Positions 704-19,969 of a stretch of DNA of 64,000 nt are shown piece by piece. Origin of the DNA: a virus. Each line of letters opens with the position of its first letter. Positions within the stretch are counted from its first letter, which is position 1. Both the position numbers and the translations under genes were made by a program. The notes under the pieces are model-generated. The model saw only the letters and a program-made list of their open reading frames with translations. It was not told the origin of the DNA and searched no databases. Location of the stretch: positions 1-64,000 of IMG/VR virus record IMGVR_UViG_3300029904_000005; one strand, written 5' to 3'.

Positions 704-1426
704 ATGGTACGAACAATTCATGTAGTATTTGTGGAGGATAAGACACAATATACCTCCAATTTGAAGGAACACATGTTCCTGTGTCCTTTTGACTATGTTA
801 AAGTAGGGGATTTAATCATGGACCCAAGATATACACCCTACATGCAGGTGACAAGAATTACTCCTTGTTGTGCAAGAGTACAGGAAGGTTTCACTCTGAA
901 AGACATCCAGATTGAGAGTTTGAACAAGAGGAAAATAGTAGTAACCCAAGGAAGTGATTTTGACATTGATAAAAGAAACATGGAAAGAAGAGACATTAGT
1001 GTCACTCTTGAAGAGGCAATAGAGTGGTACAACAGTGGAAATACCACACTGAGAACATTGGCATTGAATGCTTACACAAAGGATGAGCTGGAACTCAATT
1101 ATGCTCTGATTGCATCAAGAGTAAGCAAATACCGCAATGCTTTTATCATTCCTTTATGTGAAGAGAGGAAGTTCCAAGTACTTACAAAACTGGCTATTAT
1201 TGCCAATTACTTTAATAAGGATTGGAAAAAGACTGTTTGCAATACAGGATATTTCCTTGGTAATTATAACACTACCAATGGTCCTGTAGTAAACTGCTAT
1301 AATGGTGTTGGTATATACCAGCATAACACAGTACAGTATGCAGGGATTGTCTATTTCAAGAACCAAGAGGATGCTATTAAGGCAGTCAAGATTCTCGGTC
1401 CTGAAGTTAGAGAATTATTCAAGTAG
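704..1426 (+). CDS. hypothetical protein (240 aa)
   Basis: Long ORF; no recognisable motif. Confidence 0.8.
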   Translation: MVRTIHVVFVEDKTQYTSNLKEHMFLCPFDYVKVGDLIMDPRYTPYMQVTRITPCCARVQEGFTLKDIQIESLNKRKIVVTQGSDFDIDKRNMERRDISVTLEEAIEWYNSGNTTLRTLALNAYTKDELELNYALIASRVSKYRNAFIIPLCEERKFQVLTKLAIIANYFNKDWKKTVCNTGYFLGNYNTTNGPVVNCYNGVGIYQHNTVQYAGIVYFKNQEDAIKAVKILGPEVRELFK

Positions 1427-1446
1427 AAATTTATTATTAGCTTTGT

Positions 1447-1483
1447 GTAGGCTCAGTTGTGAAAACTCAGCCTACTTTTTATG
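1447..1483 (+). terminator. rho-independent terminator-like hairpin
   Basis: gtaggct...agcctac gives a 7-bp stem, followed by TTTTTAT, just after the 704..1426 stop. Confidence 0.5.
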
Positions 1484-1518
1484 CTGCCATAGCTTAATTG
1501 GATAAAACTAAAAAAAAC

Positions 1519-1602
1519 GCAGAGGTGGCAGAATGGATAATGCACCAGTCTTCTAAACTGGCTTTCTAAAAGAAAATGAGGGTTCGAATCCCTCCCTCTG
1601 TA
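1519..1602 (+). tRNA. tRNA, type II (long variable arm). Anticodon loop CUUCUAA gives anticodon UCU by hand folding; isotype uncertain.
   Basis: Acceptor gcagagg/cctctgt. 3-bp D stem with a 10-nt D loop. Anticodon stem ccagt/actgg. Variable arm tttct-aaa-agaaa with a 5-bp stem. T arm gaggg-ttcgaat-ccctc. No CCA encoded. Confidence 0.7.
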
Positions 1603-1633
1603 CAATAATAAACCATTTAAATAAGAAAATACA

Positions 1634-1939
1634 ATGAGAAAATGGACAGAAGAGGATAAGAACATCCTCCTTGAGGAAATCTCAAATGACCCAAGTAATC
1701 TACAGAATGTCTTCAGAAGAACTGCTGAGAGGACGGATAGAACCAGAGCCGCAGTTGCAACATACTGGTATCAGGTGCTTGCTCCTAAGAACAGAAATAA
1801 CAGGAGTAATACTGCATTCATGTCCTACAGTAAAGGCAGTATAAACAGCAATAGGAAAATATCCAGAGAGAATACTCAGCAGCCTGTTGTAGTAAGAAGA
1901 AGCAAATGGAGAAGAATACTTGATATACTGTTTGAGTAA
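1634..1939 (+). CDS. hypothetical protein with a Myb/SANT-like motif (101 aa)
   Basis: W-x-EED...L...RT...R...YWY spacing resembles a Myb/SANT DNA-binding repeat. Weak support. Confidence 0.45.
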   Translation: MRKWTEEDKNILLEEISNDPSNLQNVFRRTAERTDRTRAAVATYWYQVLAPKNRNNRSNTAFMSYSKGSINSNRKISRENTQQPVVVRRSKWRRILDILFE

Positions 1940-2204
1940 AGAAACTTTAATAATAAAGAGAGTGATATTAATTCCAGTGATACTGGTTCTTAATAAGGAT
2001 GGTGTAGCTCCTGTGACGCGTACTGCCTACTAACCTCCTGAGTTATCATAGAATCTTCTAGAGACTTGTCGCGAAAGTTGAAAAATAACTCTAGCTCTCT
2101 TTATTTAAATAGAAACAGTTGTGTACAATCCATAATATTTCCATGGCACTTAATATAGACTAAGATGATTTCATAGCTTTATTTTAAGTGCCATTTTCTT
2201 TTTT

Positions 2205-3011
2205 ATGAGTTGTACAAATAATAAAAAGTCATTAATTATGGAATGGAAGATAGGAGAAATATTTGAGTTTGAAGGTGAGTGGTATCAGTGCATACCAGAT
2301 ACCACTGATGATAATTGCAATAATTGCTTTTTTCAAAAGAGATGTAGCAACATCACAGGTGATTGTAGCTCAACTGCAAGAAGCGACGGTAAAAGCGTAG
2401 CTTTCAAGAAACTTGAAAAGATAGGAGAACCTTATAAATTAGGCAAAGTGCTAATTCAACAATATCAGGGACTTGCTCCTGTAATATTACCTAAAAATTC
2501 GGAGTGCTCAAACATTTTTAGGGTAATTAGTAGCATAAACGTTATTGAGATAGAAATCAAACAACCCCAAGAAAATATGGAAGAATATAGAATGCATGAT
2601 GCAAAAGAAGATATTCCCGAATTTGACAAAGTTGTTGACGAGTGTCTATTTGGCGAGGATAAACTAAACTTAAAGCCGTTTGACCTTGAAGCAGCTAAAG
2701 CAGGTAAACCCGTCTGCACAAGGGATGGAAGAAATGCAAGAATTATTTGCTTTGATGCTAAATGTGCAGATACACCAATTATAGCTTTAGTATCACGTAA
2801 TGATGGAGAAATTTTGTTGAGGCATTATAAAGATGGTAAACTTAGTGTTGATAAAGATTCAGATGCTGACCTCATGATGCTCTCTGAAAAGAAAGAGGGT
2901 TGGATTGTCGTTAGACGAAGTGATATCTACGAGAATGAAGAGGAAGCCAGAGAGACATTGCTTAACTCTTACGAGGCAATGATGCTTAGGAATATAACAT
3001 GGGAGGAATAA
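2205..3011 (+). CDS. hypothetical protein (268 aa), Cys-rich N-terminus
   Basis: Long ORF; N-terminal CxxxxxxxCxxC cluster. Confidence 0.8.
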   Translation: MSCTNNKKSLIMEWKIGEIFEFEGEWYQCIPDTTDDNCNNCFFQKRCSNITGDCSSTARSDGKSVAFKKLEKIGEPYKLGKVLIQQYQGLAPVILPKNSECSNIFRVISSINVIEIEIKQPQENMEEYRMHDAKEDIPEFDKVVDECLFGEDKLNLKPFDLEAAKAGKPVCTRDGRNARIICFDAKCADTPIIALVSRNDGEILLRHYKDGKLSVDKDSDADLMMLSEKKEGWIVVRRSDIYENEEEARETLLNSYEAMMLRNITWEE

Positions 3012-3014
3012 ATT

Positions 3015-3191
3015 ATGTGGATAGCAAGAGATTTTGATAACAGTTTGTGGCTTTTTACTGATAAACCATATAAAGATGACTTTAGGTGGCGGTTGCCTAT
3101 TGGTGATGGACGTTGCCAACCATTACTTGAATGTTTGTTTCCTGAAGTAAAATGGGAAGATGAAGAACCAAGAGAATTAATACTGAAGTAA
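3015..3191 (+). CDS. small hypothetical protein (58 aa)
   Basis: Good RBS (ggaggaataaattATG). Its stop overlaps the next ATG (TAATG). Confidence 0.35.
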   Translation: MWIARDFDNSLWLFTDKPYKDDFRWRLPIGDGRCQPLLECLFPEVKWEDEEPRELILK

Positions 3192-3361
3192 TGGACACTA
3201 AAGAGTTATATGTGGAGAAGTACAGAGACTTTATTATTGTCAAAACAGTGATTCCTAATATTCCTTGGGCAGTTTACACTGAGTCCGGACAATTTGTGGC
3301 AACTTTTTTATCTAAATTTTCGGCAATGGCTTTTATTGATTTAAGTTATAAAGAGAAATAA
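3191..3361 (+). CDS. small hypothetical protein (56 aa)
   Basis: Translationally coupled to its neighbours (overlapping stop and start). Confidence 0.35.
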   Translation: MDTKELYVEKYRDFIIVKTVIPNIPWAVYTESGQFVATFLSKFSAMAFIDLSYKEK

Positions 3362-3362
3362 T

Positions 3363-3560
3363 ATGGCATGGGTAGCGACAGATAAGGACGGTACTGAGAA
3401 AATATTTCCTTTTCAGCCCTATAGAGTAACAGATTATTGGACCTGTTCTATGTATATGTTTTTATCTGGGCCTATTCAACTACCAAAAGGTTCCATTAAG
3501 AAACTTATTGGAAGAAATCTCACATGGAAAGATGAATTTGTTGAACTTAAAGAAGAATAG
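3363..3560 (+). CDS. hypothetical protein (65 aa)
   Basis: ORF track entry; tight packing with neighbours. Confidence 0.5.
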   Translation: MAWVATDKDGTEKIFPFQPYRVTDYWTCSMYMFLSGPIQLPKGSIKKLIGRNLTWKDEFVELKEE

Positions 3561-3562
3561 TT

Positions 3563-4042
3563 ATGAATGAAGTTAAAATACAGATACCTGATAATTGTGA
3601 ACTCATCAAGGATGGGGACACATATATTGTGAAGGAAAAGAAACAAAGACCTCCAAGAAGTTGGGAGGAGTTCTGTGAGAGATATCCTATCAAGAAAGGA
3701 GAATCTTATATATCTATCAGTAGTAATATCTGTTCTGCAAGTTTTGATTATGTAGATAGATATTCAAAAAGTTACTGCGCCTCGAAAGAAGAAGCAGAAG
3801 CCTTTCTTGCCCTCATGCAGTTAAGGCAGTTGAGAAAGGCTTGGGTTGGTGATTGGGAACAACCTAAAGGAAAGTTTTGTGCCGGAATACTTTGTAGGGT
3901 ATATCCTACTCATGATGAAGTTGCTGTATCTTATGCTACATTTTGGACAAACATAGTTCTTTCATTCCCAACTAAAGAGATGGCTGAAGATTTCCTTAGT
4001 TGTTTCAAGGACTTATGTGAAAGGGCTAAGACTTTATTATAA
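3563..4042 (+). CDS. hypothetical protein (159 aa)
   Basis: ORF track entry; no recognisable motif. Confidence 0.75.
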   Translation: MNEVKIQIPDNCELIKDGDTYIVKEKKQRPPRSWEEFCERYPIKKGESYISISSNICSASFDYVDRYSKSYCASKEEAEAFLALMQLRQLRKAWVGDWEQPKGKFCAGILCRVYPTHDEVAVSYATFWTNIVLSFPTKEMAEDFLSCFKDLCERAKTLL

Positions 4043-4046
4043 AAAG

Positions 4047-4089
4047 TTCTCAATTTTCTTGCATAGTTGAGAATTTTTACTTATTTTTG
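4047..4089 (+). promoter_or_regulatory. terminator-like inverted repeat plus a Bacteroidetes-type -7 box (TAttTTTG) upstream of the Ro-like gene
   Basis: ttctcaa...ttgagaa is a 7-bp inverted repeat at 4047-4074. tatttttg at 4082-4089 matches the TAnnTTTG -7 consensus, 27 nt before the ATG at 4116. Confidence 0.4.
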
Positions 4090-4115
4090 CAGTGTCAAAC
4101 ATTAAAACAGAAAAG

Positions 4116-5525
4116 ATGAGCAAAGTAAATCCGTCATTAAGGAAAACCTCAAAATTTGATGAGGAAAGATTGGCTGGTGGCTCTGGTGCATTAGCAGCAA
4201 AACAGAGCAATGTGGCTCTATTAAGGAGAGCAGTACTTGCTAACCTCCTTTGGGAGAATGTGGCATATATGGATGGAATAAGGGTTGCTGAGGAAATTCA
4301 GAGACTTGTACCTCTGTGCCCTGCTGAGGAGGTATACAATATAGCCCTTGAAGCAAGGACAATGCAGAAGCTGAGACATACTCCTTTGTTCCTTGCAGTG
4401 GAGATGTGCAAGTATCCTGAGCATAAGATGTTTGTACAGGACTTGCTGCCTCAGATAATCACAAGGGCAGACATGCTCACTGACTTCTTGGCTATCTATT
4501 GGAAGGATGGTAAAAAGCCTATTGCAAATCAAGCAAAGAAAGGCCTAGCACAGGCATTCCATAATTTCAATGAGTATAAACTTGCCAAATATGACAGAGA
4601 TGCAGCTATCAAACTGAGAGATGTCATGTTCTTATGCAGACCTAAGCCAAAGAATCAGTATGAGCAGGAGTTATTTAAAAAGGTAGCAGACAGGACTCTT
4701 GCTGTGCCTGAGACATGGGAAGTGATGCTGTCTACTGGAAAGGATAAGAAAGAGTCTTGGACTAAACTTATCACTGAAGGCAAGATTGGAGGACTGGCCA
4801 TGCTGAGAAACATAGCCAATATGAGAAAGGCAAATGTGGATAGGAGAGTGATTAATGAGGGTCTTAAGAAGTTAAAGTCCTCAATGCTCCTACCTTTGGA
4901 CTTCTTGAAGGCAAACAAGATGAATCCTGAGTTTAGAGGACAAATAGAGGATGCTATGCTAAGTAGTTATGCTAATCTACCTAAGTTAAAAGGTAAGACT
5001 TTGTTTATTGTAGATGTATCAGGCTCAATGAGGGCCCCAATGTCTACTAAGTCTGGATTCAATAGGCAAGATGCAGCATGTGCTATGGCTATGTTAGCTG
5101 CCAATCAGTGTGAGGACTATGAAATAGTCTGCACTGCTGGCAATGACTATGATAGGATTGGAGCACATGAGCATATCATGTATCCTCAAAGGGGATTTGG
5201 CATCTTCTCTCAGATAGAAGATACTAGAAACAGAATTGGATATGGAGGGATATTCACAAGACAGTGCCTTGAATGGTGTGAGAAGAAATTTAAAGGGCAG
5301 AACTTTGATAGAATCATTGTATTCTCAGACTCACAGGATTGTGATTATGACACAATGAAGACTCCTAAGCCTTTTGGTACCTACAACTACATTTGTGATG
5401 TGTCTGCACATACAAAGGGTGTCAACTACAATGGTGTATGGTCTGCTGAAATAAGTGGTTTCTCAGAGCATTTTATCACATTCATTGCAGCAATGGAGGG
5501 TATTCAGAACACCTTTGAGGAATAA
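4116..5525 (+). CDS. rsr: Ro60/Rsr-like protein: TROVE-like helical region plus a C-terminal vWA domain with a MIDAS motif
   Basis: ORF 4092..5525 trimmed to the ATG at 4116. vWA MIDAS motif FIVDVSGSM. N-terminal segments RHTPLFLAV and LAMLRNIANMRKA resemble conserved Ro60 TROVE motifs as I recall them (R.PTHLF.F and LLRNLGKMTA). Size about 470 aa. Confidence 0.6.
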   Translation: MSKVNPSLRKTSKFDEERLAGGSGALAAKQSNVALLRRAVLANLLWENVAYMDGIRVAEEIQRLVPLCPAEEVYNIALEARTMQKLRHTPLFLAVEMCKYPEHKMFVQDLLPQIITRADMLTDFLAIYWKDGKKPIANQAKKGLAQAFHNFNEYKLAKYDRDAAIKLRDVMFLCRPKPKNQYEQELFKKVADRTLAVPETWEVMLSTGKDKKESWTKLITEGKIGGLAMLRNIANMRKANVDRRVINEGLKKLKSSMLLPLDFLKANKMNPEFRGQIEDAMLSSYANLPKLKGKTLFIVDVSGSMRAPMSTKSGFNRQDAACAMAMLAANQCEDYEIVCTAGNDYDRIGAHEHIMYPQRGFGIFSQIEDTRNRIGYGGIFTRQCLEWCEKKFKGQNFDRIIVFSDSQDCDYDTMKTPKPFGTYNYICDVSAHTKGVNYNGVWSAEISGFSEHFITFIAAMEGIQNTFEE

Positions 5526-5540
5526 AAAAAATAAGAGTAC

Positions 5541-5567
5541 TGTGTAGTGTTTTGTCAGACTTACTTC
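5541..5567 (+). repeat. copy A of the ~28-nt motif (gtagtgt...agacttacttc)
   Basis: Lies directly 5' of tRNA-Lys. Its terminal ACTTC forms the start of the tRNA acceptor stem. Confidence 0.5.
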
Positions 5568-5635
5568 ATTAACTAAGTGGTTATAGTACAAAACTTTTAA
5601 TTTTGATGACACAGGTTCGAGTCCTGTATGAGATT
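5563..5635 (+). tRNA. tRNA-Lys (anticodon UUU)
   Basis: 73 nt. Acceptor acttcat/atgagat (one A-C mismatch, one G-U pair). D arm acta-agtggtta-tagt. Anticodon arm caaaa-cttttaa-ttttg. Variable loop atgac. T arm acagg-ttcgagt-cctgt. Confidence 0.8.
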
Positions 5636-5691
5636 GGGGAAACCCAAGTCTGGCATTTGTTCTCACAGTACTCTTTTTGAAATAAAATATT

Positions 5692-5821
5692 GAGGAGTTA
5701 GCTCAGTTGGTAGAGCACTTAATGTACTCTGTCAAAAGTTCCACAGTAAAGTGTTGATGACAGATAGAGTTACTTCGGTCTTTTAAATCAGTGGTCATAG
5801 GTTCGAGTCCTATACTCCTCA
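5692..5821 (+). ncRNA. tRNA-like RNA (130 nt) with a 58-nt insertion between the D arm and the anticodon arm; Lys-like anticodon loop CUUUUAA
   Basis: Perfect 7-bp acceptor pairing gaggagt/actcctc across 130 nt. Canonical D arm gctc-agttggta-gagc. Canonical T arm atagg-ttcgagt-cctat with discriminator A. The insert at 5717-5774 carries repeat copy B. The anticodon stem is weak. Confidence 0.55.
5744..5776 (+). repeat. copy B of the ~28-nt motif (inside the tRNA-like insert)
   Basis: Sequence cagtaaagtgttgatgacagatagagttacttc. Confidence 0.5.
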
Positions 5822-5827
5822 CTAAAT

Positions 5828-5855
5828 GCAGTATAGTGTATAATAGACTTACTTC
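5828..5855 (+). repeat. copy C of the ~28-nt motif (intergenic)
   Basis: Sequence gcagtatagtgtataatagacttacttc. Confidence 0.5.
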
Positions 5856-5939
5856 TGCCATAGTAAATATTGAAAATTTGTTTGGGTTATTGATTTTTTT
5901 TTTCAGTCTATTAGCTTTTCTTACTGCATTTTACAATAT

Positions 5940-6064
5940 GGGGATGTAGCTTAATGGTTATAGTACTCTAATCGTTTTTCTCTGGAAGCAGTAGTGTAGA
6001 TAAGAGTTACTTCAAGCATTTAATTCGTAATTAAAATATGAAAGTTCGATTCTTTCCATCCCCA
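5940..6064 (+). ncRNA. tRNA-like RNA (125 nt) with a 54-nt insertion between the D arm and the anticodon arm; anticodon loop UUCGUAA (CGU, Thr-like)
   Basis: Perfect acceptor ggggatg/catcccc. D arm gctt-aatggtta-tagt. Perfect anticodon arm tttaa-ttcgtaa-ttaaa at 6019-6035. T arm gaaag-ttcgatt-ctttc. The insert at 5965-6018 carries repeat copy D. Confidence 0.55.
5988..6013 (+). repeat. copy D of the ~28-nt motif (inside the tRNA-like insert)
   Basis: Sequence gcagtagtgtagataagagttacttc. Confidence 0.5.
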
Positions 6065-6076
6065 CTAGAATAGACT

Positions 6077-6097
6077 GGTGCATGTAATGGCTACTTC
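6077..6097 (+). repeat. copy E (degenerate) of the motif
   Basis: Sequence ggtgcatgtaatggctacttc. Weaker match to the other copies. Confidence 0.3.
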
Positions 6098-6157
6098 AAT
6101 TATTTTAACTGCATTTGTTTGACTTTTTACACAAGAACCATTACAGAAAGTTCCGTC

Positions 6158-6194
6158 TTAGGGCTACAGTAGAAATATTGTAGCCCTTTTTTGT
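6158..6194 (+). terminator. rho-independent terminator ending the RNA cluster
   Basis: gggctaca-loop-tgtagccc gives an 8-bp stem, followed by TTTTTTG. Confidence 0.65.
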
Positions 6195-6250
6195 TTGAAT
6201 ATATTCGAAACATATACAATATCTGATTTATTAATTTTCTAAAAAAAAAG

Positions 6251-6619
6251 ATGGAAAAGAAAAAGACTGCTCTTAACAGGGCACTGAAAGAACAGCATTT
6301 TGAAATTGCTGAAACAGCCATGAAAGGTGGTGAAGAATCTGGAAGCCTAGAATATCCTGAACTGGTCAGGGGACTTGTTGAAGGATATAAGGGCAAGACT
6401 GCCCATGCACCTATTGAGGTGATTATAACAAGTTCCATCTTCCTTAATGCAAAGGAGCTGATGGGTCTTATAGAGTCACTGAAGCACACTCTTAAAATCA
6501 AGATGGTAGAGGAGCTTAGAGAGAAAGCTGAGAAGGGTGAGGCAACCCCAACAGATGTAATGGCTGCACTGATGTTGGCAGACATGATGAAAACAACAGA
6601 ACACAAAGAGGATGAATAA
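6251..6619 (+). CDS. hypothetical protein (122 aa)
   Basis: Preferred over the overlapping antisense ORF 6127..6624, whose product is Ser/Leu-rich antisense-type sequence. Same strand as neighbouring genes. Confidence 0.7.
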   Translation: MEKKKTALNRALKEQHFEIAETAMKGGEESGSLEYPELVRGLVEGYKGKTAHAPIEVIITSSIFLNAKELMGLIESLKHTLKIKMVEELREKAEKGEATPTDVMAALMLADMMKTTEHKEDE

Positions 6620-6992
6620 CACAACTAAAATCTCCCTGACCATTGAATTGGAGGGGAGCACTCTGGTACGCCAGAGTGAGCCTGAGATTATTAAATACTC
6701 AGTAACAAAAAGAGACCTTGAACCCAGTAAGAAGTGGAAAGGTAAAGATGGTCTGGAAGTAGTGAGAAAGGGTGCTTTCAAACACTATAGTGCCATTCCA
6801 AGACCTGCTTCCCAGCACATCAATATGAGCATTGAGGCATATGAATATATGACCTCAAGTGAATGTCCATACTGGTCCAGACCTAATGTGTGGAGGAAAC
6901 TGAATGAGACAGAAAGGCTTGAGGCTCACTTACAGAGAATCTGTGAGCATATGGGGGGTAAGTCTTTCACCTATGAAGTGTTAGAGGATTAA
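6612..6992 (+). CDS. hypothetical protein (126 aa)
   Basis: ORF track entry; overlapping start and stop with the upstream gene. Confidence 0.75.
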   Translation: MNNTTKISLTIELEGSTLVRQSEPEIIKYSVTKRDLEPSKKWKGKDGLEVVRKGAFKHYSAIPRPASQHINMSIEAYEYMTSSECPYWSRPNVWRKLNETERLEAHLQRICEHMGGKSFTYEVLED

Positions 6993-7009
6993 TTATCTCA
7001 GTGTAAGGG

Positions 7010-7050
7010 GAAAGGAGTATGCTGAATAAGCCTACTCCTTTCTTTTTTTT
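7010..7050 (+). terminator. rho-independent terminator
   Basis: aaaggagta-loop-tactccttt gives a 9-bp stem, followed by a T9 run. Confidence 0.65.
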
Positions 7051-7069
7051 TAGTATAAACTGATTAATC

Positions 7070-7610
7070 ATGGCAGAATTTATATATTTCAGGAATCAAT
7101 GTAGTATGTGGTATCCTACAGGAGAAAACTTCTCACATGCTTTTGGTTATATAGAAGAAGCTGCATTTTCCATTGATGATGTATTCCCAACAGGAAGATT
7201 TATCTTGGTGGTAAGAGGACACTCAGGCTCTATACTTGCAGGAGGAATAGCATACTTACTGAGAAGAAAAGGTAGAGATGTGCAAATATCCATATCAAGA
7301 AAATCAGAATCCACTCATGGTTACAATCTTGAAGGTATATACCCTTTTGATAAAACAGATGAGGTGCATATAATAGTTGTTGATGACTTTACTCAGACAG
7401 GTGAGACCATCAATGCAATACTTAGGGATTTGGCTGAAAAAAAAAATGTACGGGAGAAAAACATTTGACATGCTATGTATTGCTAATCATTGGGATGAAA
7501 GTAGTTTTACCAAAGAGGGAGGAGATGAGTATTGGGAGGCACATAAAGAAGTGGCCTCTCATTTTGAGTATATATTATGTAATTCGAAAATAAGAAAGAA
7601 AAAGAAATGA
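7070..7610 (+). pseudogene. type I phosphoribosyltransferase (PRTase) gene split by a frameshift at an A10 homopolymer (7437-7446)
   Basis: ORF 7070..7468 carries the PRPP-binding motif IIVVDDFTQTGETI. ORF 7377..7610 continues in another frame. Removing one A from the A10 run fuses them into one ~180-aa product, a typical PRTase length. Confidence 0.5.
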
Positions 7611-7780
7611 AAGTATTAGTGATATTACTGTTACTGCTTCTCTTCTTCCTATGGGTATATATCAGATATGACCCTAAGTTGGATAGAATAAGGAATAAAG
7701 ACAACTCATATGTCATATTATGGTATAATAGCTATTGTTGGGGTAGAGAAACAGAAAGAAAATATGTAATTCTATTTTAG
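7607..7780 (+). CDS. small membrane protein (57 aa)
   Basis: ATG overlaps the upstream stop. N-terminal sequence KVLVILLLLLLFFLWVYI is a TM helix. Below the ORF-track cutoff. Confidence 0.4.
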   Translation: MKVLVILLLLLLFFLWVYIRYDPKLDRIRNKDNSYVILWYNSYCWGRETERKYVILF

Positions 7781-7781
7781 T

Positions 7782-7982
7782 ATGAAAACAGGCACAATTG
7801 TGAAAATAGTATTGTGGTTTATACTGTTTATTGCCCTGCTTAGTGTGGGACTGGAGATGGTATCAAACCCAAATACAATGGAGAATGTGATTGGATTCTT
7901 TATTGTGGCAGCTATAGTAATTATTTCAATCAAAACAAAGTGTTTAACAACAATTAAATTCAAAAGAAAACATGAAGAGTAA
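7782..7982 (+). CDS. small membrane protein (66 aa, 2 TM)
   Basis: Hydrophobic helices. Preferred over the antisense ORF 7772..7963. Confidence 0.5.
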   Translation: MKTGTIVKIVLWFILFIALLSVGLEMVSNPNTMENVIGFFIVAAIVIISIKTKCLTTIKFKRKHEE

Positions 7983-8796
7983 AATTATTGTATTTGTAAT
8001 GGCTCTTATGGCTGTAATCAGCCTGAGTAGCTGTAGAGAAAGAATTGATGCAGGATATGAGGGCATCAAGGTGAACCTTTATGGTTCAGACAAAGGTGTG
8101 GATGAAGTATCACTGGTGACTGGTACTGTGTGGTACAATCCTATCACCACTAAAATCTATGAGTATCCTACATTCGTGCAGACTGTGGATTATGCTCCTT
8201 TCAGTATTAATGCAAAGGATGGCAGCTCATTCACAGTAGACCCTACCATCTCTCTGAAGATTGTAGATGGAAAGTCAGCTGAGGTATTCAAGAAATATAG
8301 GAAAGAGGATATTACTGAAGTTATTAATACAACTCTATACAATTATGTAAGGAATGCTTTCAGAATCCAGCTGAATAATTACACTACTGATGAATTGGTA
8401 AGTAAGAGGGAAGAGTTTGAGAAAGCCATTGAGGACAGGCTGGCTGAGGAATTGTTTGCTGAAAATTTCCAGTTGGAGCAGATGACCTCAGGCTTGCAGT
8501 ATCCTCAGACTCTTGTGAATGCCATTGATGCAAAGAATGCAGCAGTTCAGGAGGCACAGAAAGCACAGAATGAGGTATTGAAGATTAAGGCTGAGGCTGA
8601 GAAGAAGATTGCAGCAGCAAATGGTGAGGCACAGGCTCTGAAAATCAAGGGTGATGCAGAAGCAGAATACAATAGAAAGATTGCTGCATCCCTATCTCCC
8701 CTAATTGTACAGCAGATGATGCTTGAGAAGTGGGATGGTAAACTACCTATATATGGTACAGTTCCCACATTATTCAGAAATGTAGCAGAGAAATAA
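7972..8796 (+). CDS. SPFH/band-7 (prohibitin-like) domain lipoprotein
   Basis: Lipoprotein signal MKSKIIVFVMALMAVISLSSC. SPFH-like core, then an Ala/Glu/Lys-rich coiled-coil (EAQKAQNEVLKIKAEAEKKIAAANGEAQALKIKGDAEAEY). Confidence 0.65.
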   Translation: MKSKIIVFVMALMAVISLSSCRERIDAGYEGIKVNLYGSDKGVDEVSLVTGTVWYNPITTKIYEYPTFVQTVDYAPFSINAKDGSSFTVDPTISLKIVDGKSAEVFKKYRKEDITEVINTTLYNYVRNAFRIQLNNYTTDELVSKREEFEKAIEDRLAEELFAENFQLEQMTSGLQYPQTLVNAIDAKNAAVQEAQKAQNEVLKIKAEAEKKIAAANGEAQALKIKGDAEAEYNRKIAASLSPLIVQQMMLEKWDGKLPIYGTVPTLFRNVAEK

Positions 8797-8804
8797 TTAT
8801 AGTT

Positions 8805-8945
8805 ATGTGGTGGATTATTATAGCTGTCATATTTATTGCCTTTACTACCTGCATACTCAAAGATACCCATGTGAAAAAATACAATAGGACTCGGTATAAT
8901 TATTACACACTGGATGAGGAGTATGACCTTAAACTGCCTTTATAG
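8805..8945 (+). CDS. small membrane protein (46 aa)
   Basis: N-terminal MWWIIIAVIFIAFTTCIL is a TM helix. Lies between the SPFH gene and the next membrane ORF. Confidence 0.35.
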   Translation: MWWIIIAVIFIAFTTCILKDTHVKKYNRTRYNYYTLDEEYDLKLPL

Positions 8946-8951
8946 GCATGG

Positions 8952-9158
8952 ATGATTATAGCAGGTTCGTACTTTTTACCTATTATGAATATTGTGGCAT
9001 TTGTAGCTTTCCTTATTTATTACATTTATCATGCAGGACTGGACCCTAAAACCGTAGATAATGGTAATGAGGAAAACTATGCCTTCTCACTGAATGGGAA
9101 TAATTGGGTAACTAAGGGACTTTTGGCAATAAAGAAAGTATTAAACAAGAAGATATGA
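8952..9158 (+). CDS. small membrane protein (68 aa)
   Basis: Hydrophobic N-terminus. Its stop overlaps the helicase start (ATGA). Confidence 0.55.
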   Translation: MIIAGSYFLPIMNIVAFVAFLIYYIYHAGLDPKTVDNGNEENYAFSLNGNNWVTKGLLAIKKVLNKKI

Positions 9159-10369
9159 CAAGAGAAGAACTACAGATACAGTCCCTATCACTAATTAAAC
9201 AAAGTAATAGAGTTGCATTACAATGGTGTACAGGATTAGGTAAGAGCAAAATGGCTATTGATATGGCTAATTATCTGGCAGATAAGGAGTTTAAGGTAAA
9301 CTCAGAACCTCTCAATGTATTACTTGTAGTAGCAGAGACTGCACATAAGTCCAATTGGAAAGAGGAGATTGACAAATGGGAGTTAAGAACAGGAGAATGG
9401 GTAATGGAGTGTTATGCCTCACTGAAGAAGTACAGGAATACTCATTGGGATTTGATTATCTTTGATGAGGCCCACCATCTTGGCTCTGATTTGAGAATGG
9501 ATGTGCTGGCTGAGCTTCATGCAAGCAACATCATTCTATTATCTGCTACTCTTCCTGACCAAGTAATGCAGGCTGTAACTGGAGTTTTTGGGGAATTTGT
9601 TACTTCAAAGGTTACTCTCAAGCAGGCTATAGAATGGGGAATATTACCAACTCCTAAAGTATATCTTATTCCATTAACTCTTGATAGTACATACCCTAAT
9701 TGTACAATCATAGAGGAGTGGGGTAAAAAGGAAAAGAGAGTCACTTACAAATGCAGGTTCCATGAAAGATGGGAGTACTTGAAGAATAAGAACAAGTACC
9801 CTAATGTGACACTGGAAATTTCCTGTACACAACAACAGAAGTATGATTATCTATCTGCCCAGTTTGATTATTGGAAGAATAGATTTCTCTCAACAAGAAA
9901 TGAAGCTGTGAAAAATAAGTGGCTACAGATAGGCTCAAAAAGAAAAAGATTTCTTGGAGAATCAAAGACAGCAGTTGTAAGGCAGCTATTAAAGGACCTC
10001 GAAGGTAAAAGATATATATGTTTTTGTGCTAGTATAGAACAGGCTGAATCTCTTGGAGGGACTAATACCATACATTCAAAGAAAGATAATTCACTTGAGA
10101 TTATTGACAAGTTCAATGCAGGGGATATTAATAGTCTGTTTGCTGTAGGAATGCTTCAGGAAGGACAGAATCTCACAGGAATACAGGCAGGGGTAATTAT
10201 ACAGCTTGATGGTCAGGAGAGAGGATTTATACAGAAAATGGGTAGGAGTATGAGGTCAGATACTCCTATACAATATGTGTTATATTACAGAGATACAAGA
10301 GATGAGGAATATCTTGACTCTGTATTTGAGAATATTGATAAAGATTATATAGCTATTATGGAGAAATGA
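9155..10369 (+). CDS. superfamily II DNA helicase (DEAH box)
   Basis: Walker A CTGLGKSK. Walker B/DEAH IIFDEAHH. C-terminal helicase domain motifs. Confidence 0.8.
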   Translation: MTREELQIQSLSLIKQSNRVALQWCTGLGKSKMAIDMANYLADKEFKVNSEPLNVLLVVAETAHKSNWKEEIDKWELRTGEWVMECYASLKKYRNTHWDLIIFDEAHHLGSDLRMDVLAELHASNIILLSATLPDQVMQAVTGVFGEFVTSKVTLKQAIEWGILPTPKVYLIPLTLDSTYPNCTIIEEWGKKEKRVTYKCRFHERWEYLKNKNKYPNVTLEISCTQQQKYDYLSAQFDYWKNRFLSTRNEAVKNKWLQIGSKRKRFLGESKTAVVRQLLKDLEGKRYICFCASIEQAESLGGTNTIHSKKDNSLEIIDKFNAGDINSLFAVGMLQEGQNLTGIQAGVIIQLDGQERGFIQKMGRSMRSDTPIQYVLYYRDTRDEEYLDSVFENIDKDYIAIMEK

Positions 10370-17743: not shown

Positions 17744-18002
17744 GCTAATTATACCTGAAGAGGTTGAGAAAAAGATAAGATATATATGCCAGCAAATATG
17801 GAAAGATGAATGGTCTGGCACTCTCTTCTATAAACCAGAAGGGAGGTTTGAGGATGGTACTTTGGCTATCAGATGTGTGGATATTTATGTCATGGATATT
17901 GGAACTGCTGCCTATACAGAGTTTGATATGTCTCCTGATGTAATCAGCTATATGACTGATAATCCTGAGTTGCTTGACTGTCAGATGGGACTCATCCATT
18001 AA
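17679..18002 (+). CDS. hypothetical protein (107 aa)
   Basis: ORF track entry. Overlaps the upstream gene by 65 nt in another frame. Confidence 0.55.
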   Translation: MEKQNKETKKVIELVKKSDTFKLIIPEEVEKKIRYICQQIWKDEWSGTLFYKPEGRFEDGTLAIRCVDIYVMDIGTAAYTEFDMSPDVISYMTDNPELLDCQMGLIH

Positions 18003-18163
18003 GTGTGAGTGGATGTAAAACTGGGTGAATTGCTGGAAACTGGTAGATAAACCACAATCAGCAGCCAAGCATTAGGGTTAAAACCCTTTTGAAGGTTCAA
18101 CGACTAACACTTGAAACTGCTATTGCAGAATATAATAGTGACACGAGTGCCCAGCCCTATAGA

Positions 18164-18898
18164 TTATTTTATAGGTGATGATATAGTCTGAACTTGTTTA
18201 TATTTATCATAAGAGGAATGATTTATTCTTTGTAAGAATTTATCATGTTTCCTTTTATAATAAAAGGTTAAATTATTGTAACAATTAAAGAATTGCATAA
18301 CATCTTTTTTAGATGCAAATGCTAATCTTGGTATGGAATCATATTGTCTTATATGAGATTTATCTATAGATAGGTGGTCACATATTCCTTCAAGGAATTT
18401 CTGTGTACCTCTTATACTTATGTATAAAGAATAATCTTTACACAAGTATCCCCTATCATTAGTTCTTTCTCTATCTAAGACAGTTACACTTCCATCTCCA
18501 TCAAAGTATCCTATTATAAAAGCATTTCTATATTCCATAGGTATATTACATAATATATTATCCATAGATAAGCTTTTATTCTCAGTGATACCATATCTTC
18601 TTAAAGCATTTATTATAGGTCTTTTAGAAATTGTATATCTGATATGATGGATTTCCTTAGTTTTATCAAAGGAACTCTTTCTTCTAATTTCAAGCAATTT
18701 TCTATTAATATCTTGTAACTGATTCTTTATAAAATATAAAACAGCTCTGTCCTCATATTTAACCGTAATGGTTAAAGAAGTGGAAGAGGTTGATGTACCT
18801 TTCACTAAAGCACCATCTGCGGCTATAAACCCTAAGATATAGGCTTTTGAATAAGAATCAATTACATCAAAATAATGTACATTTACTGGGTATTTCAT
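18164..18898 (-). mobile_element. free-standing LAGLIDADG homing endonuclease (two LAGLIDADG motifs)
   Basis: Motifs ILGFIAADGAL and IIGYFDGDGSV. Only minus-strand gene in a + strand block. About 150 nt of non-coding DNA on both sides. Confidence 0.85.
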
Positions 18899-19050: not shown

Positions 19051-19959
19051 ATGAGTACCTTCTTCAGTGGTACAGATACTGCTACTCTGAAGGAAGAAGG
19101 CATAGACAGGAATCATTTTGTATCTCTGATTGTCAATAATGAGGGTACATATACAGCTGCCATTACAAGAAAGGTAAAAGCTGTAAAGACTATCACAGAA
19201 GATTTCTCCTATCCTACCTTTGAGGATGAGGAAATAACAGATACCAAGACCTATACAGTGGAAAGTGAGGAACTTGAGTGGTTTTATCTGAAGATTGAGT
19301 TTGAGAGCAGTTCCTTTCGTGAGGAACTTAAAGCAAGACTTGAGGAAATTAAGAATGTCAAAGCAGAGAAAGCCAGACAAAAGGCACTTAAGCAGCCTGT
19401 ATATGCTGGTGGGTATGGTAATTGGCAAAGTAGTAAGCCTCAGCAGGGTACTCTGTTCCCTGAAATTGGTAAGAAAGTAACACAATCATATATGGGACAA
19501 GCAGGTCCTGCCAATGAGGTTGTTAGAGAGGATAGTGACAGTTCCCTTTTTGATTATGACTATATTGATAATAAGATTTCAAATGATGTGCCTTATAATC
19601 ATGTAGAGTTCAATAAGGAAACTGTGAAATCACTTGTGCTTCAACTTGTTACAGGAAGTATTATTATACCTAATGCAAGTAAGATTGATGCTAGGAAATG
19701 GGCACAGGGTATGGTTCCTCTCTATGAAAGAAGATTTGGTAAAGGTAAGAAAGGAATGAAGTTGTTTGAGTCATGGGCTGAAGGTTATATTGAGTTCCTG
19801 TGTTGGTTCGCTGAGGATAGTGACCTTATAGAAATGGGACTGTGTGATGATGAGATTGCTGCAATATGTGCTTACAGTATAATCAAGGAACTTACCAAGT
19901 TGCCTGAAAATGTATATATTAAGAAGTATATTGATATTCTTAGAGGATATTTAATTTAA
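19051..19959 (+). CDS. hypothetical protein (302 aa)
   Basis: ORF track entry. The antisense ORF 19039..19485 was rejected. Confidence 0.75.
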   Translation: MSTFFSGTDTATLKEEGIDRNHFVSLIVNNEGTYTAAITRKVKAVKTITEDFSYPTFEDEEITDTKTYTVESEELEWFYLKIEFESSSFREELKARLEEIKNVKAEKARQKALKQPVYAGGYGNWQSSKPQQGTLFPEIGKKVTQSYMGQAGPANEVVREDSDSSLFDYDYIDNKISNDVPYNHVEFNKETVKSLVLQLVTGSIIIPNASKIDARKWAQGMVPLYERRFGKGKKGMKLFESWAEGYIEFLCWFAEDSDLIEMGLCDDEIAAICAYSIIKELTKLPENVYIKKYIDILRGYLI

Positions 19960-19969
19960 AGTAAATGAA

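What the first reader, a model, noticed from the sequence alone, without database searches (positions are those of the whole stretch)
4047..6194. Ro60/Rsr-like (TROVE+vWA) gene directly followed by a cluster of tRNA and atypical tRNA-like RNAs: candidate phage Ro-RNP system
The 470-aa product of 4116..5525 has a helical N-terminal region with motifs that resemble the Ro60 TROVE domain (RHTPLFLAV; LAMLRNIANMRKA), as I recall that family. Its C-terminal vWA domain has the MIDAS motif DVSGSM. That is the Ro60/Rsr architecture. In bacteria, rsr sits next to genes for Y RNAs, and the YrlA class of Y RNAs contains a tRNA-like domain. Here the Ro-like gene is followed 38 nt later, on the same strand, by tRNA-Lys(UUU) and two tRNA-like genes with large non-canonical insertions. 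All of these lie under one terminator (6158-6194) and probably one promoter (4082-4089). This co-operonic layout is what a phage-encoded Ro protein with tRNA-mimic Y-RNA-like partners would look like. I am not aware of it being described for crAss-like phages.
Basis: partly seen in the sequence, partly recalled or inferred. Interest (0 to 1): 0.88.

Follow-up and report, generated by a model that had tools for sequence, protein, structure and literature searches.

The report
crAss-like phage Ro60–Y RNA operon
A crAss-like gut phage carries a Ro60-type RNA-binding protein gene followed by five small RNA genes; all five share a diverged form of the stem that marks bacterial Y RNAs, and three are built into complete tRNA shapes, so this is an unannotated, topologically unusual version of a known protein–RNA partnership.

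Summary

**Protein.** The 4116..5525 gene encodes a full-length Ro60/TROVE protein. Pfam TROVE scores above threshold. A homolog profile hits the solved Ro60 structures from Thermus phage phiLo, Xenopus, Deinococcus and human.

**RNAs.** The 630 nt between this gene and a strong terminator hold five RNA units, not three. All five share one module, and its helices covary across 70 distinct copies. The module consists of:
- a variable lower helix
- a bulged U
- two conserved pairs (R-Y and G-C)
- an asymmetric internal loop
- an 8-bp upper helix
- an invariant (U/C)UACUUC tail

**Family link.** The same frame flanks TROVE genes in distant phages and in 64 of 80 bacterial loci. In some of those the crAss UAGUG position reads GGCGAAG, the published Rsr-binding motif of YrlA. 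The RNAs are therefore diverged YrlA/YrlB-class Y RNAs.

**What is unusual.**
- Unit 1 is a complete tRNA-Lys at the tip of the stem.
- Unit 2 is a tRNA-Lys-like RNA with the module inserted in its anticodon stem.
- Unit 4 is a tRNA-Thr-like RNA with the module in its D loop.
- Units 2 and 4 have open acceptor ends.

The array is unannotated in the crAss001 reference genome. Binding and function are inferred, not shown.

**Verdict.** New variant of a known kind.

The parts
4082..4089 (+). Candidate promoter -7 element TATTTTTG upstream of the TROVE gene. It follows a weak hairpin at 4046-4074 that ends the upstream gene.
   Evidence: Read from the sequence. The match to the Bacteroides TAnnTTTG consensus rests on my own knowledge. 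The sigma-70 scan did not call it. Unverified.
4116..5525 (+). Ro60/TROVE protein gene, 469 aa: N-terminal HEAT-repeat TROVE region plus C-terminal vWA domain with MIDAS-type DVSGS at residues 300-304.
   Evidence: Pfam TROVE 52.8 bits, above the cut-off of 23. PHROG 850 'RNA-binding protein' at 3e-33. PDB phiLo Ro60 (9KOP/9L5Y) at 7e-15 over residues 24-461. A homolog profile hits phiLo Ro60 at 1.7e-38, Xenopus Ro60 at 1.4e-9, Deinococcus Rsr at 2e-9 and human RO60 at 3e-9. 78% aa identity to crAss001 Gp96.
5533..5675 (+). Y-like RNA unit 1, with the RNA ends in the lower helix. Layout: 12-bp lower helix (5533-5544 with 5664-5675); UAGUG at 5545-5549 opposite GUUCU at 5659-5663; upper helix; UUACUUC at 5561-5567. 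The module encloses a complete tRNA-Lys(UUU) at 5563-5635 and a GGGGAAACCC hairpin.
   Evidence: MFE fold recovers this layout, z = -4.4. ARAGORN and Rfam call the tRNA. Lower and upper helices covary across relatives. The acceptor stem changed compensatorily in L005.
5692..5821 (+). Y-like RNA unit 2, a tRNA-Lys(UUU)-like cloverleaf with open acceptor ends. The module (5724-5776, lower helix capped by a loop) is inserted in the 5' strand of the anticodon stem between nt 28 and 29. The split stem is CU|GGU pairing with AUCAG.
   Evidence: ARAGORN calls tRNA-Lys(ttt) after excision. The two outer stem pairs that bracket the insertion are kept in 29 of 30 distinct relatives, in at least five pair combinations.
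5824..5931 (+). Y-like RNA unit 3, stand-alone with no tRNA domain (YrlB-like). Layout: 10-bp lower helix; UAGUG at 5834-5838; UUACUUC at 5849-5855; UUCU at 5918-5921.
   Evidence: 10 of 10 complementary pairs directly after UUCU. MFE fold z = -2.3. An orthologous unit in L004 has compensatory changes.
5940..6064 (+). Y-like RNA unit 4, a tRNA-Thr(CGU)-like cloverleaf with open acceptor ends. The module (5963-6013, lower helix CUG-GAAG-CAG) is inserted in the D loop. The D stem is GCUU/AAGC.
   Evidence: Rfam tRNA 34.1 bits for 5990-6064. ARAGORN calls tRNA-Thr(cgt) after excision. The D stem flanking the insert reads GCU/AGC in some relatives and GUG/CAC in others (sequences). MFE fold z = -3.0.
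6072..6158 (+). Y-like RNA unit 5, stand-alone. Layout: short lower helix AGAC/GUCU; UGGUG at 6076-6080 opposite GUUCC at 6150-6154; upper helix CAUGUAAUGG/CCAUUACAG; CUACUUC at 6091-6097.
   Evidence: Read from the sequence. Upper helix 8 of 8 paired. MFE fold recovers the frame but with z = -0.1. The last unit in relatives has the same layout and also precedes the terminator.
6160..6197 (+). Intrinsic terminator that ends the TROVE-RNA array: a 12-bp stem with 5 G-C pairs, then TTTTTTGTTTG.
   Evidence: Terminator scan. An equivalent hairpin plus T tract follows the last unit in relatives.

Best explanation
This is a phage Ro60–Y RNA operon.

**Shown**
- The gene encodes a Ro60/TROVE-vWA protein.
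- The 630 nt after it encode five structured RNAs on the same strand, ending at one terminator.
- Every RNA contains the same helical module: lower helix, bulged U, R-Y and G-C pairs, an asymmetric loop (5' UG.. opposite ..RUU), an 8-bp upper helix, and a (U/C)UACUUC tail.
- This module is the diverged counterpart of the stem of bacterial YrlA/YrlB Y RNAs. UAGUG occupies the position of the GNCGAA motif, and UUAC that of the YUAY motif.
- The module accompanies TROVE genes across phages and bacteria.

**Inferred**
- The array is transcribed with the TROVE mRNA. The crAss001 ortholog is an early gene.
- The transcript is cut into five small RNAs. Each docks one Ro60 ring through the bulged-helix module.
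- The distal part of each RNA is the effector. Three units present an essentially complete tRNA. Two present small hairpins.
- By analogy with Rsr–Y RNA–PNPase, the RNP most likely tethers Ro60 to host RNA-handling enzymes. In the tRNA-shaped units these would be proteins that recognise tRNAs. It would thereby redirect structured-RNA or tRNA surveillance early in infection.

The exact target is unknown.
For: **Protein family:**

**Module is real and structured**
- Five copies lie in 540 nt of the window and nowhere else in it.
- 51 related loci hold 2-6 copies each at the same place.
- Among 70 distinct modules, 96.4% of cells are paired, against 65% when shuffled and 26-43% when slid. All 8 upper-helix pairs covary.
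- The motif pair reads U-A in 57 copies and C-G in 13, with no exception.
- RNAalifold finds the same structure independently, as do the single-sequence MFE folds.
- Search-bias controls.

**Link to TROVE**
- The frame lies next to TROVE genes of 26-65% aa identity found by a DNA pattern scan.
- 43 frames on the TROVE strand against 3 opposite in 26 viral loci.
- 172 against 4 in 80 bacterial and archaeal loci.

**Link to YrlA**
- CcrColossus and Xylella phage Usme units use the same frame around the permuted T-arm / closed acceptor / D-arm domain, and get Rfam YrlA hits at E=1e-7 and 4e-10.
- Microcystis phage and L282 units read GGCGAAG where crAss has UAGUG.

**Literature**
- YrlA RNAs lie within 4 kb of Ro60 genes on the same strand and are proposed to dock through this motif; a YrlA is cut by RNase P and receives CCA (PMC4201824).
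- Phage phiLo Ro60 binds phage Y-like RNAs and forms complexes with host PNPase (PMC12135203).
- crAss001 TROVE is an early gene (PMC8375218).

**tRNA-shaped units are extras rather than the tRNA supply**
- crAss001 has a separate cluster of 23 ordinary tRNAs, including two Lys and Thr and Pro, without the module.
- In crAss001-type relatives the anticodon hairpin of the unit-2 class is aberrant, with a 9-nt loop.
Against: - No expression, processing or binding data exist for this phage.
- Rfam Y_RNA and YrlA give no hit in the window even at E<=10.
- The literal GNCGAA motif is absent from all five window units.
- The NCBIfam Rsr equivalog model scores 18 bits against a cut-off of 900, so the protein is a distant Ro60 relative, not an Rsr equivalog.
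- The AlphaFold model from a single sequence was unusable (pLDDT 42), so the ring fold is inferred from sequence only.
- Units 1, 2 and 4 in this window keep regular 7-nt anticodon loops, so a decoding role cannot be excluded.
- Two module arrays (L067, L111) have no TROVE gene within the held stretch, though those loci are partial.
- Part of the helix statistics comes from registers chosen to maximise pairing. Shuffle controls mitigate this.
Confidence: 0.78

Rival explanations
1. The RNAs are primarily working tRNAs (Lys, Lys, Thr) for phage translation. The shared module is a handle by which the TROVE protein chaperones, protects or matures them. Units 3 and 5 are by-products or regulators. 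Under this reading the system is a tRNA-supply device, not an effector-tethering RNP.
For: - Complete cloverleaves with open acceptor ends and regular 7-nt anticodon loops in the window.
- Anticodons differ between close relatives: Thr, Pro, Tyr, Ile, Met, His, Lys. This looks like selection on decoding.
- tRNA-Lys in unit 1 scores 58.9 bits.
Against: - A roughly 50-nt helix branching from the anticodon stem or D loop would clash with the ribosome and with D/T-loop packing unless it is removed. No removal mechanism is known in bacteria.
- crAss001 already has ordinary tRNA-Lys (two copies), Thr, Pro, Ile, Met and His in another cluster.
- Several lineages have 8-9-nt or irregular anticodon loops.
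- Two of the five units have no tRNA part.
- In bacteria the same module is attached to non-decoding tRNA mimics.
Confidence: 0.12
2. The module is an intron-like or mobile insertion, or a processing signal, in a phage tRNA operon. It happens to lie beside the TROVE gene and has no functional tie to that protein.
For: - Excising the module restores canonical tRNAs.
- The same element sits at three different positions in different tRNA bodies, as a mobile element might.
- The window and its relatives do carry group I introns and homing endonucleases.
Against: - The module also exists free-standing with its own paired 5' and 3' ends (units 3 and 5).
- It tracks TROVE genes down to about 26% aa identity in unrelated phages and in bacteria, always on the gene's strand.
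- It has no resemblance to group I/II introns, to bulge-helix-bulge motifs, or to any Rfam ribozyme.
- The ordinary tRNA cluster of crAss001 lacks it.
Confidence: 0.04

Closest known systems
Bacterial Rsr (Ro60) with YrlA/YrlB Y RNAs (Salmonella Typhimurium, Mycobacterium smegmatis; Chen et al. 2014, PMC4201824; Rfam RF02553)
   Same: - RNA genes lie next to the Ro60 gene on the same strand.
- A long stem carries a conserved 5'-strand motif, followed about 15 nt later by YUAY. Here these are UAGUG/UGGUG and UUAC/CUAC.
- The effector domain mimics tRNA, with T and D arms.
- tRNA-less partner RNAs (YrlB-like) sit in the same locus.
   Different: - The literal GNCGAA motif is replaced by RGUGNN.
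- Rfam's model does not detect the RNAs.
- The tRNA part is not circularly permuted. Units 2 and 4 have open acceptor ends and a capped Ro stem. Unit 1 holds a whole tRNA at the stem tip.
- An anticodon hairpin is present.
- There are five units in tandem.
- The protein shares only about 40% aa identity with the closest bacterial TROVE proteins in the genome scan, and it fails NCBIfam's Rsr equivalog model.
Deinococcus radiodurans Rsr–Yrn1–PNPase (RYPER)
   Same: - A Ro60 ortholog with a Y RNA whose tRNA-like part has the normal D-to-T order, with the Ro-binding stem at the acceptor position (PMC4201824). Window unit 1 has the same arrangement.
- It supplies the mechanistic model of tethering Ro60 to an exoribonuclease.
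   Different: - Yrn1 has an incomplete D arm and a 6-nt 'anticodon' loop. Unit 1 is a full tRNA-Lys that tRNA finders recognise.
- No PNPase link has been tested here.
Thermus phage phiLo φRo60 with Yrl1/Yrl2 (PMC12135203; PDB 9KOP, 9L5Y)
   Same: - A phage-encoded Ro60 with phage-encoded Y-like RNAs beside the gene.
- It is the closest solved structure by sequence (E=7e-15 with a single sequence, 1.7e-38 with a profile).
   Different: - phiLo RNAs were picked by a CGAA motif and lie upstream of the gene.
- They are described as stem-bulge-stem RNAs and were not described as containing a tRNA-like domain.
- The host and phage lineage differ.
YrlA-like arrays of Caulobacter phage CcrColossus and Xylella/Xanthomonas phages
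   Same: - The same frame: [stem]-U-GG(U/C)G-N10-(U/C/A)UACUUC ... GUUCC-[stem].
- Tandem arrays of 7 and 4 units next to a TROVE gene of about 37% aa identity.
- Some units include an anticodon-like hairpin after UUACUUC, as window unit 2 does.
   Different: - There the arrays lie upstream of the gene, and the tRNA-like domain is the canonical permuted form with a closed acceptor hairpin (Rfam YrlA E=1e-7 to 4e-10).
- In the window the acceptor is open and the Ro stem is capped, or a whole tRNA is enclosed.

Membership tests
Ro60/TROVE protein family | TROVE (HEAT-repeat) domain | tested here: met
   Pfam PF05731 at E=5e-14, 52.8 bits, against a gathering score of 23. The full-length alignment to phiLo Ro60 covers residues 24-461.
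Ro60/TROVE protein family | C-terminal vWA domain with a MIDAS DxSxS motif | tested here: met
   DVSGS at residues 300-304 is invariant across the 20-sequence alignment A3. Pfam vWA_Ro60 scores E=1.9e-4, 21.9 bits, slightly below its cut-off of 27.7. Many close homologs carry PF25045 in precomputed annotation.
Ro60/TROVE protein family | Sequence relationship to experimentally solved Ro60 rings | tested here: met
   Profile search: 9KOP/9L5Y at 1.7e-38, 1YVP at 1.4e-9, 2NVO at 2e-9, 9NEN at 3e-9.
Ro60/TROVE protein family | Ring-shaped fold | tested here: inconclusive
   The single-sequence AlphaFold2 model had mean pLDDT 42. No fold search was run on it.
Ro60/TROVE protein family | NCBIfam Rsr equivalog (NF041674) | tested here: not met
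   18.2 bits against a cut-off of 900. The protein is a distant family member, not an Rsr equivalog.
YrlA/YrlB-class bacterial Y RNA | Encoded within 4 kb of the Ro60 gene on the same strand | tested here: met
   The units span 5533-6158, starting 8 nt after the stop codon, on the + strand.
YrlA/YrlB-class bacterial Y RNA | Long stem formed by the RNA's 5' and 3' ends | tested here: met
   Met for units 1, 3 and 5, with lower helices of 12, 10 and 4 (+2) bp. Not met for units 2 and 4, where the same helix is capped by a loop and the RNA ends are tRNA acceptor ends.
YrlA/YrlB-class bacterial Y RNA | GNCGAAN0-1G motif near the 5' end | tested here: not met
   The window units read UAGUGUU, AAGUGUU, UAGUGUA, UAGUGUA and UGGUGCA. 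The motif occupies the same position in the same frame as GGCGAAG in Microcystis phage and L282 units, and as GGUGAAG in Xylella phage. It is a diverged counterpart, not a literal match.
YrlA/YrlB-class bacterial Y RNA | Conserved YUAY about 15 nt downstream of the 5' motif | tested here: met
   UUAC in four units and CUAC in one, each 10-16 nt after the RGUG motif, in all five units.
YrlA/YrlB-class bacterial Y RNA | tRNA-like domain with T and D arms | tested here: met
   Units 1, 2 and 4 are full cloverleaves. Units 3 and 5 lack this domain, as YrlB does.
YrlA/YrlB-class bacterial Y RNA | Permuted order T arm – closed acceptor hairpin – D arm (the YrlA architecture) | tested here: not met
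   In the window the order is acceptor–D–anticodon–T–acceptor. The permuted form is seen in CcrColossus and Xylella phage relatives.
YrlA/YrlB-class bacterial Y RNA | Match to Rfam RF02553 at the gathering score | tested here: not met
   No YrlA or Y_RNA hit at E<=10 in 5400-6400, and none at the gathering score in the whole window.
YrlA/YrlB-class bacterial Y RNA | Physical binding to the Ro60 ortholog | not testable with these tools
   Needs RIP or EMSA. The only support here is co-occurrence.
Canonical decoding tRNA | Uninterrupted cloverleaf of 70-90 nt that tRNA finders recognise | tested here: not met
   Met for the tRNA-Lys inside unit 1. Units 2 and 4 are missed by ARAGORN, and are called only after a 50-60-nt insertion is removed from the anticodon stem or D loop.
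Canonical decoding tRNA | Aminoacylation and use on the ribosome | not testable with these tools
   No data.

The most novel reading that the evidence does not exclude
crAss-like phages, and a few other phage lineages, have turned the Y RNA inside out. Instead of a tRNA mimic with a closed acceptor, they make genuine tRNA bodies with open, potentially CCA-tailed and chargeable acceptor ends and real anticodon loops (Lys-UUU twice, and Thr). Each carries a Ro60-docking helix on the anticodon stem, the D loop or the acceptor.

Such Ro60-tagged tRNAs could act early in infection as baits or sensors for host tRNA-targeting defences, or for tRNA-repair and processing enzymes. Lys-UUU, for example, is the classic target of anticodon nucleases. 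This would bring a Ro60-associated nuclease or repair activity to those enzymes.
Probability: 0.2. Interest if true: 0.85.

Novelty: new variant of a known kind. Interest (0 to 1): 0.62.

Why it matters
- **Function of a known early gene.** crAss-like phages are among the most abundant viruses of the human gut. Their conserved early TROVE gene has had no assigned partner or function. Here it is 78% identical to crAss001, while neighbouring genes are 31-51% identical.
- **Candidate partners.** This analysis gives the gene five candidate RNA partners. They fill a gap of about 900 nt left unannotated in the crAss001 reference genome.
- **A cultivable test system.** The result ties crAss biology to the Ro60–Y RNA field and offers crAss001 on Bacteroides intestinalis as a system for finding out what a phage Ro RNP does.
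- **Y RNA structure.** The Ro-docking stem appears to be a portable module that can be grafted onto true tRNA bodies at three different sites. This bears on how Y RNAs evolved from tRNAs and on what their tRNA-like domains are for.
- **Annotation.** Standard tools (ARAGORN, Rfam tRNA, Rfam YrlA) miss these RNAs, so similar arrays are probably under-annotated in phage and bacterial genomes.
- **Autoimmunity.** From my own knowledge, commensal Ro60 orthologs have been proposed as triggers of anti-Ro autoimmunity. An abundant gut-phage Ro60 RNP would be another source worth considering.

Tried and rejected
- **Megablast of 3500-7000 against INPHARED phages:** no hit. The tblastn search was needed to find crAss001.
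- **Rfam on the RNA region:** only tRNA hits. The weak hits to ycf2, SdsR, CPEB3 and permuted tmRNA are chance-level.
- **AlphaFold2 on the single sequence:** pLDDT 42, unusable. No fold search was run.
- **First IMG/VR pattern scan:** It was useful only after structural filtering.
- **Search for a TROVE gene beside the arrays in L067 and L111:** none in the held, partial stretches, so this is unresolved.
- **Ideas considered from memory and dropped:**
  - K-turn: there are no tandem G·A pairs.
  - Loop E or sarcin-ricin motif: no AGUA/GAA.
  - Hammerhead, twister, pistol, hatchet or HDV-like ribozyme: no core motifs and no Rfam hit.
  - Archaeal-type bulge-helix-bulge intron: wrong geometry, and no such endonuclease is known in bacteria.
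- **Tail–loop pairing:** I considered that the UUACUUC tail pairs with the GAAG or GUAA capping loops of units 2 and 4. This cannot be general, because units 1, 3 and 5 have no capping loop.
- **Vertebrate Y RNA resemblance:** UAGUG…GUUAC resembles the vertebrate Y RNA upper-stem sequence GUAGUGGGUUAUC (recalled from memory). There that sequence is fully base-paired, so I treat the resemblance as coincidental.

Full report
**What is in the sequence**

ORF 4116..5525 on the + strand encodes a 469-aa protein. ARAGORN finds one tRNA after it, tRNA-Lys(UUU) at 5563..5635. Rfam also reports a weaker tRNA match at 5990..6064 and a fragmentary one at 5767..5817. It reports no Y_RNA or YrlA match even at E<=10. 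A strong intrinsic terminator lies at 6160..6187. The sigma-70 scan finds no promoter upstream of the gene. It remains unverified.

**The protein**

- Pfam TROVE matches above its curated threshold (E=5e-14, 52.8 bits against 23). vWA_Ro60 matches just below its threshold.
- PHROG 850 'RNA-binding protein' matches at 3e-33.
- A single-sequence search of PDB sequences aligns residues 24-461 to the Ro60 homolog of Thermus phage phiLo at E=7e-15.
- A profile of 20 homologs raises that to 1.7e-38. It also reaches Xenopus Ro60, Deinococcus Rsr and human RO60 at about 1e-9.
- The MIDAS-type DVSGS is invariant in that alignment.
- The NCBIfam Rsr equivalog model is far from met, so this is a distant Ro60 family member.
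- A single-sequence AlphaFold model was too poor to use.

The protein is 78% identical to Gp96 of Bacteroides phage crAss001, annotated 'TROVE domain-containing protein'. The window is syntenic with the right-end early region of crAss001, and the neighbouring proteins are only 31-51% identical. The crAss001 TROVE gene is reported as an early transcript and 'a possible ribonucleoprotein component' (PMC8375218).

**The RNAs share one module**

Reading the region showed a repeated TTACTTC. The pattern N-R-GTG, then 6-16 nt, then (T/C)TACTTC occurs five times in the 64-kb window. All five lie on the + strand between 5545 and 6097. Shuffled windows give about 1.1 scattered matches on both strands together.

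The 51 related viral loci found with the protein (69-88% identity, mostly contigs of about 100 kb) hold 2-6 copies each at the same place, 237 copies in all.

The module has this anatomy:
- a lower helix of variable sequence
- one bulged U on the 5' strand
- an R-Y pair and a G-C pair, which pair UAGUG with GUUCU or UGGUG with GUUCC
- an asymmetric internal loop, with UG plus 2-3 nt on the 5' strand and 4-6 nt ending in (G/A/U)UU on the 3' strand
- an upper helix of 8 bp
- the tail (U/C)UACUUC

I built a fixed-length alignment of 70 distinct modules, circularly permuting those whose ends lie in the lower helix. In it, 96.4% of cells pair, against 65% after shuffling and 26-43% when partners are slid. 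All eight upper-helix pairs and four of the five lower pairs covary. The motif pair is U-A in 57 copies and C-G in 13, without exception.

Two helices were located by maximising complementarity, so I ran shuffle controls:
- A lower helix of at least 8 consecutive pairs occurs in 42 of 100 distinct units, against 0.8% of shuffles.
- An upper helix with at least 7 of 8 pairs occurs in 115 of 128 units, against 11% of shuffles.

RNAalifold on a plain MAFFT alignment of 18 contiguous modules finds the same helices. Minimum-free-energy folds of the five window units recover the module each time.

**Five units in three kinds of tRNA context**

- **Unit 1 (5533..5675)** has its ends in a 12-bp lower helix. 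The upper helix opens onto a complete tRNA-Lys(UUU) plus a GGGGAAACCC hairpin. In L005 the tRNA acceptor stem differs on both strands, so pairing is kept.
- **Unit 2 (5692..5821)** is a tRNA-Lys(UUU)-like cloverleaf with normal acceptor ends. The module, its lower helix capped by a loop, is inserted between nt 28 and 29 of the anticodon stem. The two stem pairs that bracket the insertion are kept in 29 of 30 distinct relatives, as GU/AC, CU/AG, AU/AU, CG/CG or UG/CA.
- **Unit 4 (5940..6064)** is a tRNA-Thr(CGU)-like cloverleaf with the module inside the D loop. The flanking D stem is GCUU/AAGC here, and GCU/AGC or GUG/CAC in relatives.
- **Units 3 (5824..5931) and 5 (6072..6158)** are stand-alone, with no tRNA part.

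With the module excised, ARAGORN calls a tRNA in all 86 units of the unit-2 and unit-4 kinds from the window and relatives. This test is permissive, because many excisions were tried.

Anticodon arms differ between close relatives (Thr, Pro, Tyr, Ile, Met, His, Lys). In crAss001-type relatives the unit-2 class has a 9-nt or irregular loop.

In the crAss001 GenBank record the roughly 900 nt after the TROVE gene carry no annotation. Its 23 ordinary tRNAs sit in a separate cluster that lacks the module.

**Link to TROVE genes elsewhere**

- A DNA-only pattern scan of IMG/VR returned mostly chance hits. The hits with proper helices lay beside TROVE genes, including ones of only 26-65% identity (L056, L059, L068, L097, L106, L120).
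- Two arrays (L067, L111) had no TROVE gene in the partial stretch held.
- A structure-aware detector was calibrated on the window, where it finds five frames on the + strand and one on the - strand in 64 kb. In 26 viral TROVE loci of 43-69% identity it found 43 frames on the TROVE strand against 3 opposite.
- In 80 bacterial and archaeal TROVE loci it found 172 against 4. Frames were present in 64 loci, with arrays of up to ten units.

**Link to known Y RNAs**

In Caulobacter phage CcrColossus and Xylella phage Usme the same frame, [stem]-U-GG(U/C)G-N10-(U/C/A)UACUUC … GUUCC-[stem], forms tandem arrays upstream of the TROVE gene. There it encloses the published YrlA architecture of T arm, closed acceptor hairpin and D arm. 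Rfam YrlA matches these at E=1e-7 and 4e-10, below its gathering score.

In the Microcystis phage Mvi-JY20 and in L282, the position of the crAss UAGUG reads GGCGAAG. This is the GNCGAAN0-1G motif that Chen et al. proposed as the Rsr contact. UUAC corresponds in position and spacing to their YUAY (PMC4201824).

The window RNAs are therefore diverged members of the bacterial Y RNA class.

**What differs from the known kind**

Canonical YrlA is a circularly permuted tRNA mimic with a closed acceptor and no anticodon loop. Here:
- Units 2 and 4 have open acceptor ends and a capped Ro stem.
- Unit 1 carries a whole tRNA at the stem tip. This orientation is closer to Deinococcus Yrn1 (PMC4201824).
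- I found no precedent for the D-loop graft of unit 4.

Open-acceptor forms occur in crAss-like relatives down to 55% protein identity and in a few other phage contigs. I did not find them convincingly in the bacterial loci.

**How it most likely works**

*Shown:* a Ro60-family gene; five structured RNAs on its strand before one terminator; a shared, covarying module homologous to the Y RNA stem; and co-occurrence with TROVE genes.

*Inferred:*
- The RNAs are co-transcribed with the early TROVE mRNA.
- The transcript is processed into five RNAs.
- Each RNA docks one Ro60 ring through the bulged helix.
- The distal domains, three tRNA shapes and two hairpin sets, recruit or occupy other factors.

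The precedents are Rsr–Y RNA–PNPase and the phiLo Ro60–Yrl–PNPase complexes (PMC12135203).

Two rivals remain. The first is that the RNAs are working tRNAs, with Ro60 as a chaperone handle. The second is that the module is an intron-like or mobile element unrelated to the protein. Both are less likely, for four reasons:
- free-standing units exist;
- the ordinary tRNA set lies elsewhere in the genome;
- anticodon loops are degenerate in some lineages;
- the tie to TROVE genes is tight and strand-specific.

**Novelty and verdict**

Phage Ro60 with Y-like RNAs is known in mycobacteriophages, CcrColossus, Bacillus phage G and phiLo. Jumbo-phage TROVE proteins have been linked to RNA repair (PMC7824862). 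In the searchable literature I found no paper describing Y RNAs of crAss-like phages or these tRNA-embedded topologies.

I rate this a new variant of a known kind. It is of solid interest to Ro/Y RNA and crAss-phage specialists, and it is testable in a cultivable system.

Noticed in passing
window 17950-18209 (+): Group I catalytic intron: Rfam RF00028 at 66.4 bits against a gathering score of 50. crAss001 annotates several group I intron endonucleases.
   Followed up: no
window 1519-1603 (+): tRNA-Arg(UCU) of 85 nt with a long extra arm, which is unusual for tRNA-Arg. The crAss001 counterpart is annotated as 72 nt.
   Followed up: no
L052 (crAss001 MH675552.1) locus 5811-6715: The reference crAss001 record has no feature in the roughly 900 nt between TROVE Gp96 and Gp95. 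Four to five Y-like units lie there.
   Followed up: yes
L180 (crAss001) 19478-20349: crAss001 encodes polynucleotide kinase/phosphatase genes Gp60 and Gp61. From my own knowledge these are RNA-end healing enzymes, the kind phage T4 uses against anticodon nucleases. No RNA ligase is annotated.
   Followed up: no
L001 5950-6094; L002 5950-6086; L024 6111-6207; L050 5500-5631 and others: The last Y-like unit of many relatives contains a hairpin with a conserved loop ..A(A/C)AGACUGA.. on a covarying stem. Another group instead has a conserved AGAAAGGAGUAGAUUU. The window's unit 5 has neither.
   Followed up: no
L024 5975-6109; L026 3338-3472; L027 5828-5962; L050 5364-5498: D-loop-grafted tRNA-like RNAs with an 8-nt anticodon loop CUUGUAAA. 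ARAGORN reports a 4-nt anticodon 'tgta'.
   Followed up: no
L274 100-1805; L279, L285, L337 and other bacterial loci: Acidobacteriota and other bacterial genomes carry arrays of up to ten tandem Y-RNA frames upstream of their TROVE gene. This is far more than the one or two Y RNAs usually described per species.
   Followed up: partly
L038, L039, L041 (69-70% aa relatives): In these crAss-like contigs the Y-like/tRNA-like cluster lies 2.5-4 kb downstream of the TROVE gene rather than directly after it. I did not examine what lies between.
   Followed up: no
window 4046-4074 (+): Inverted repeat GTTCTCAA…TTGAGAAT followed by TTTTTA. It sits directly after the upstream ORF (3563..4042) and before the TROVE gene's candidate promoter. 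It may be a weak terminator, but the scan did not call it.
   Followed up: no
window 704-10369 compared with L052: The TROVE protein is by far the best conserved product of the early region: 78% aa identity against 31-51% for its neighbours, relative to crAss001.
   Followed up: partly
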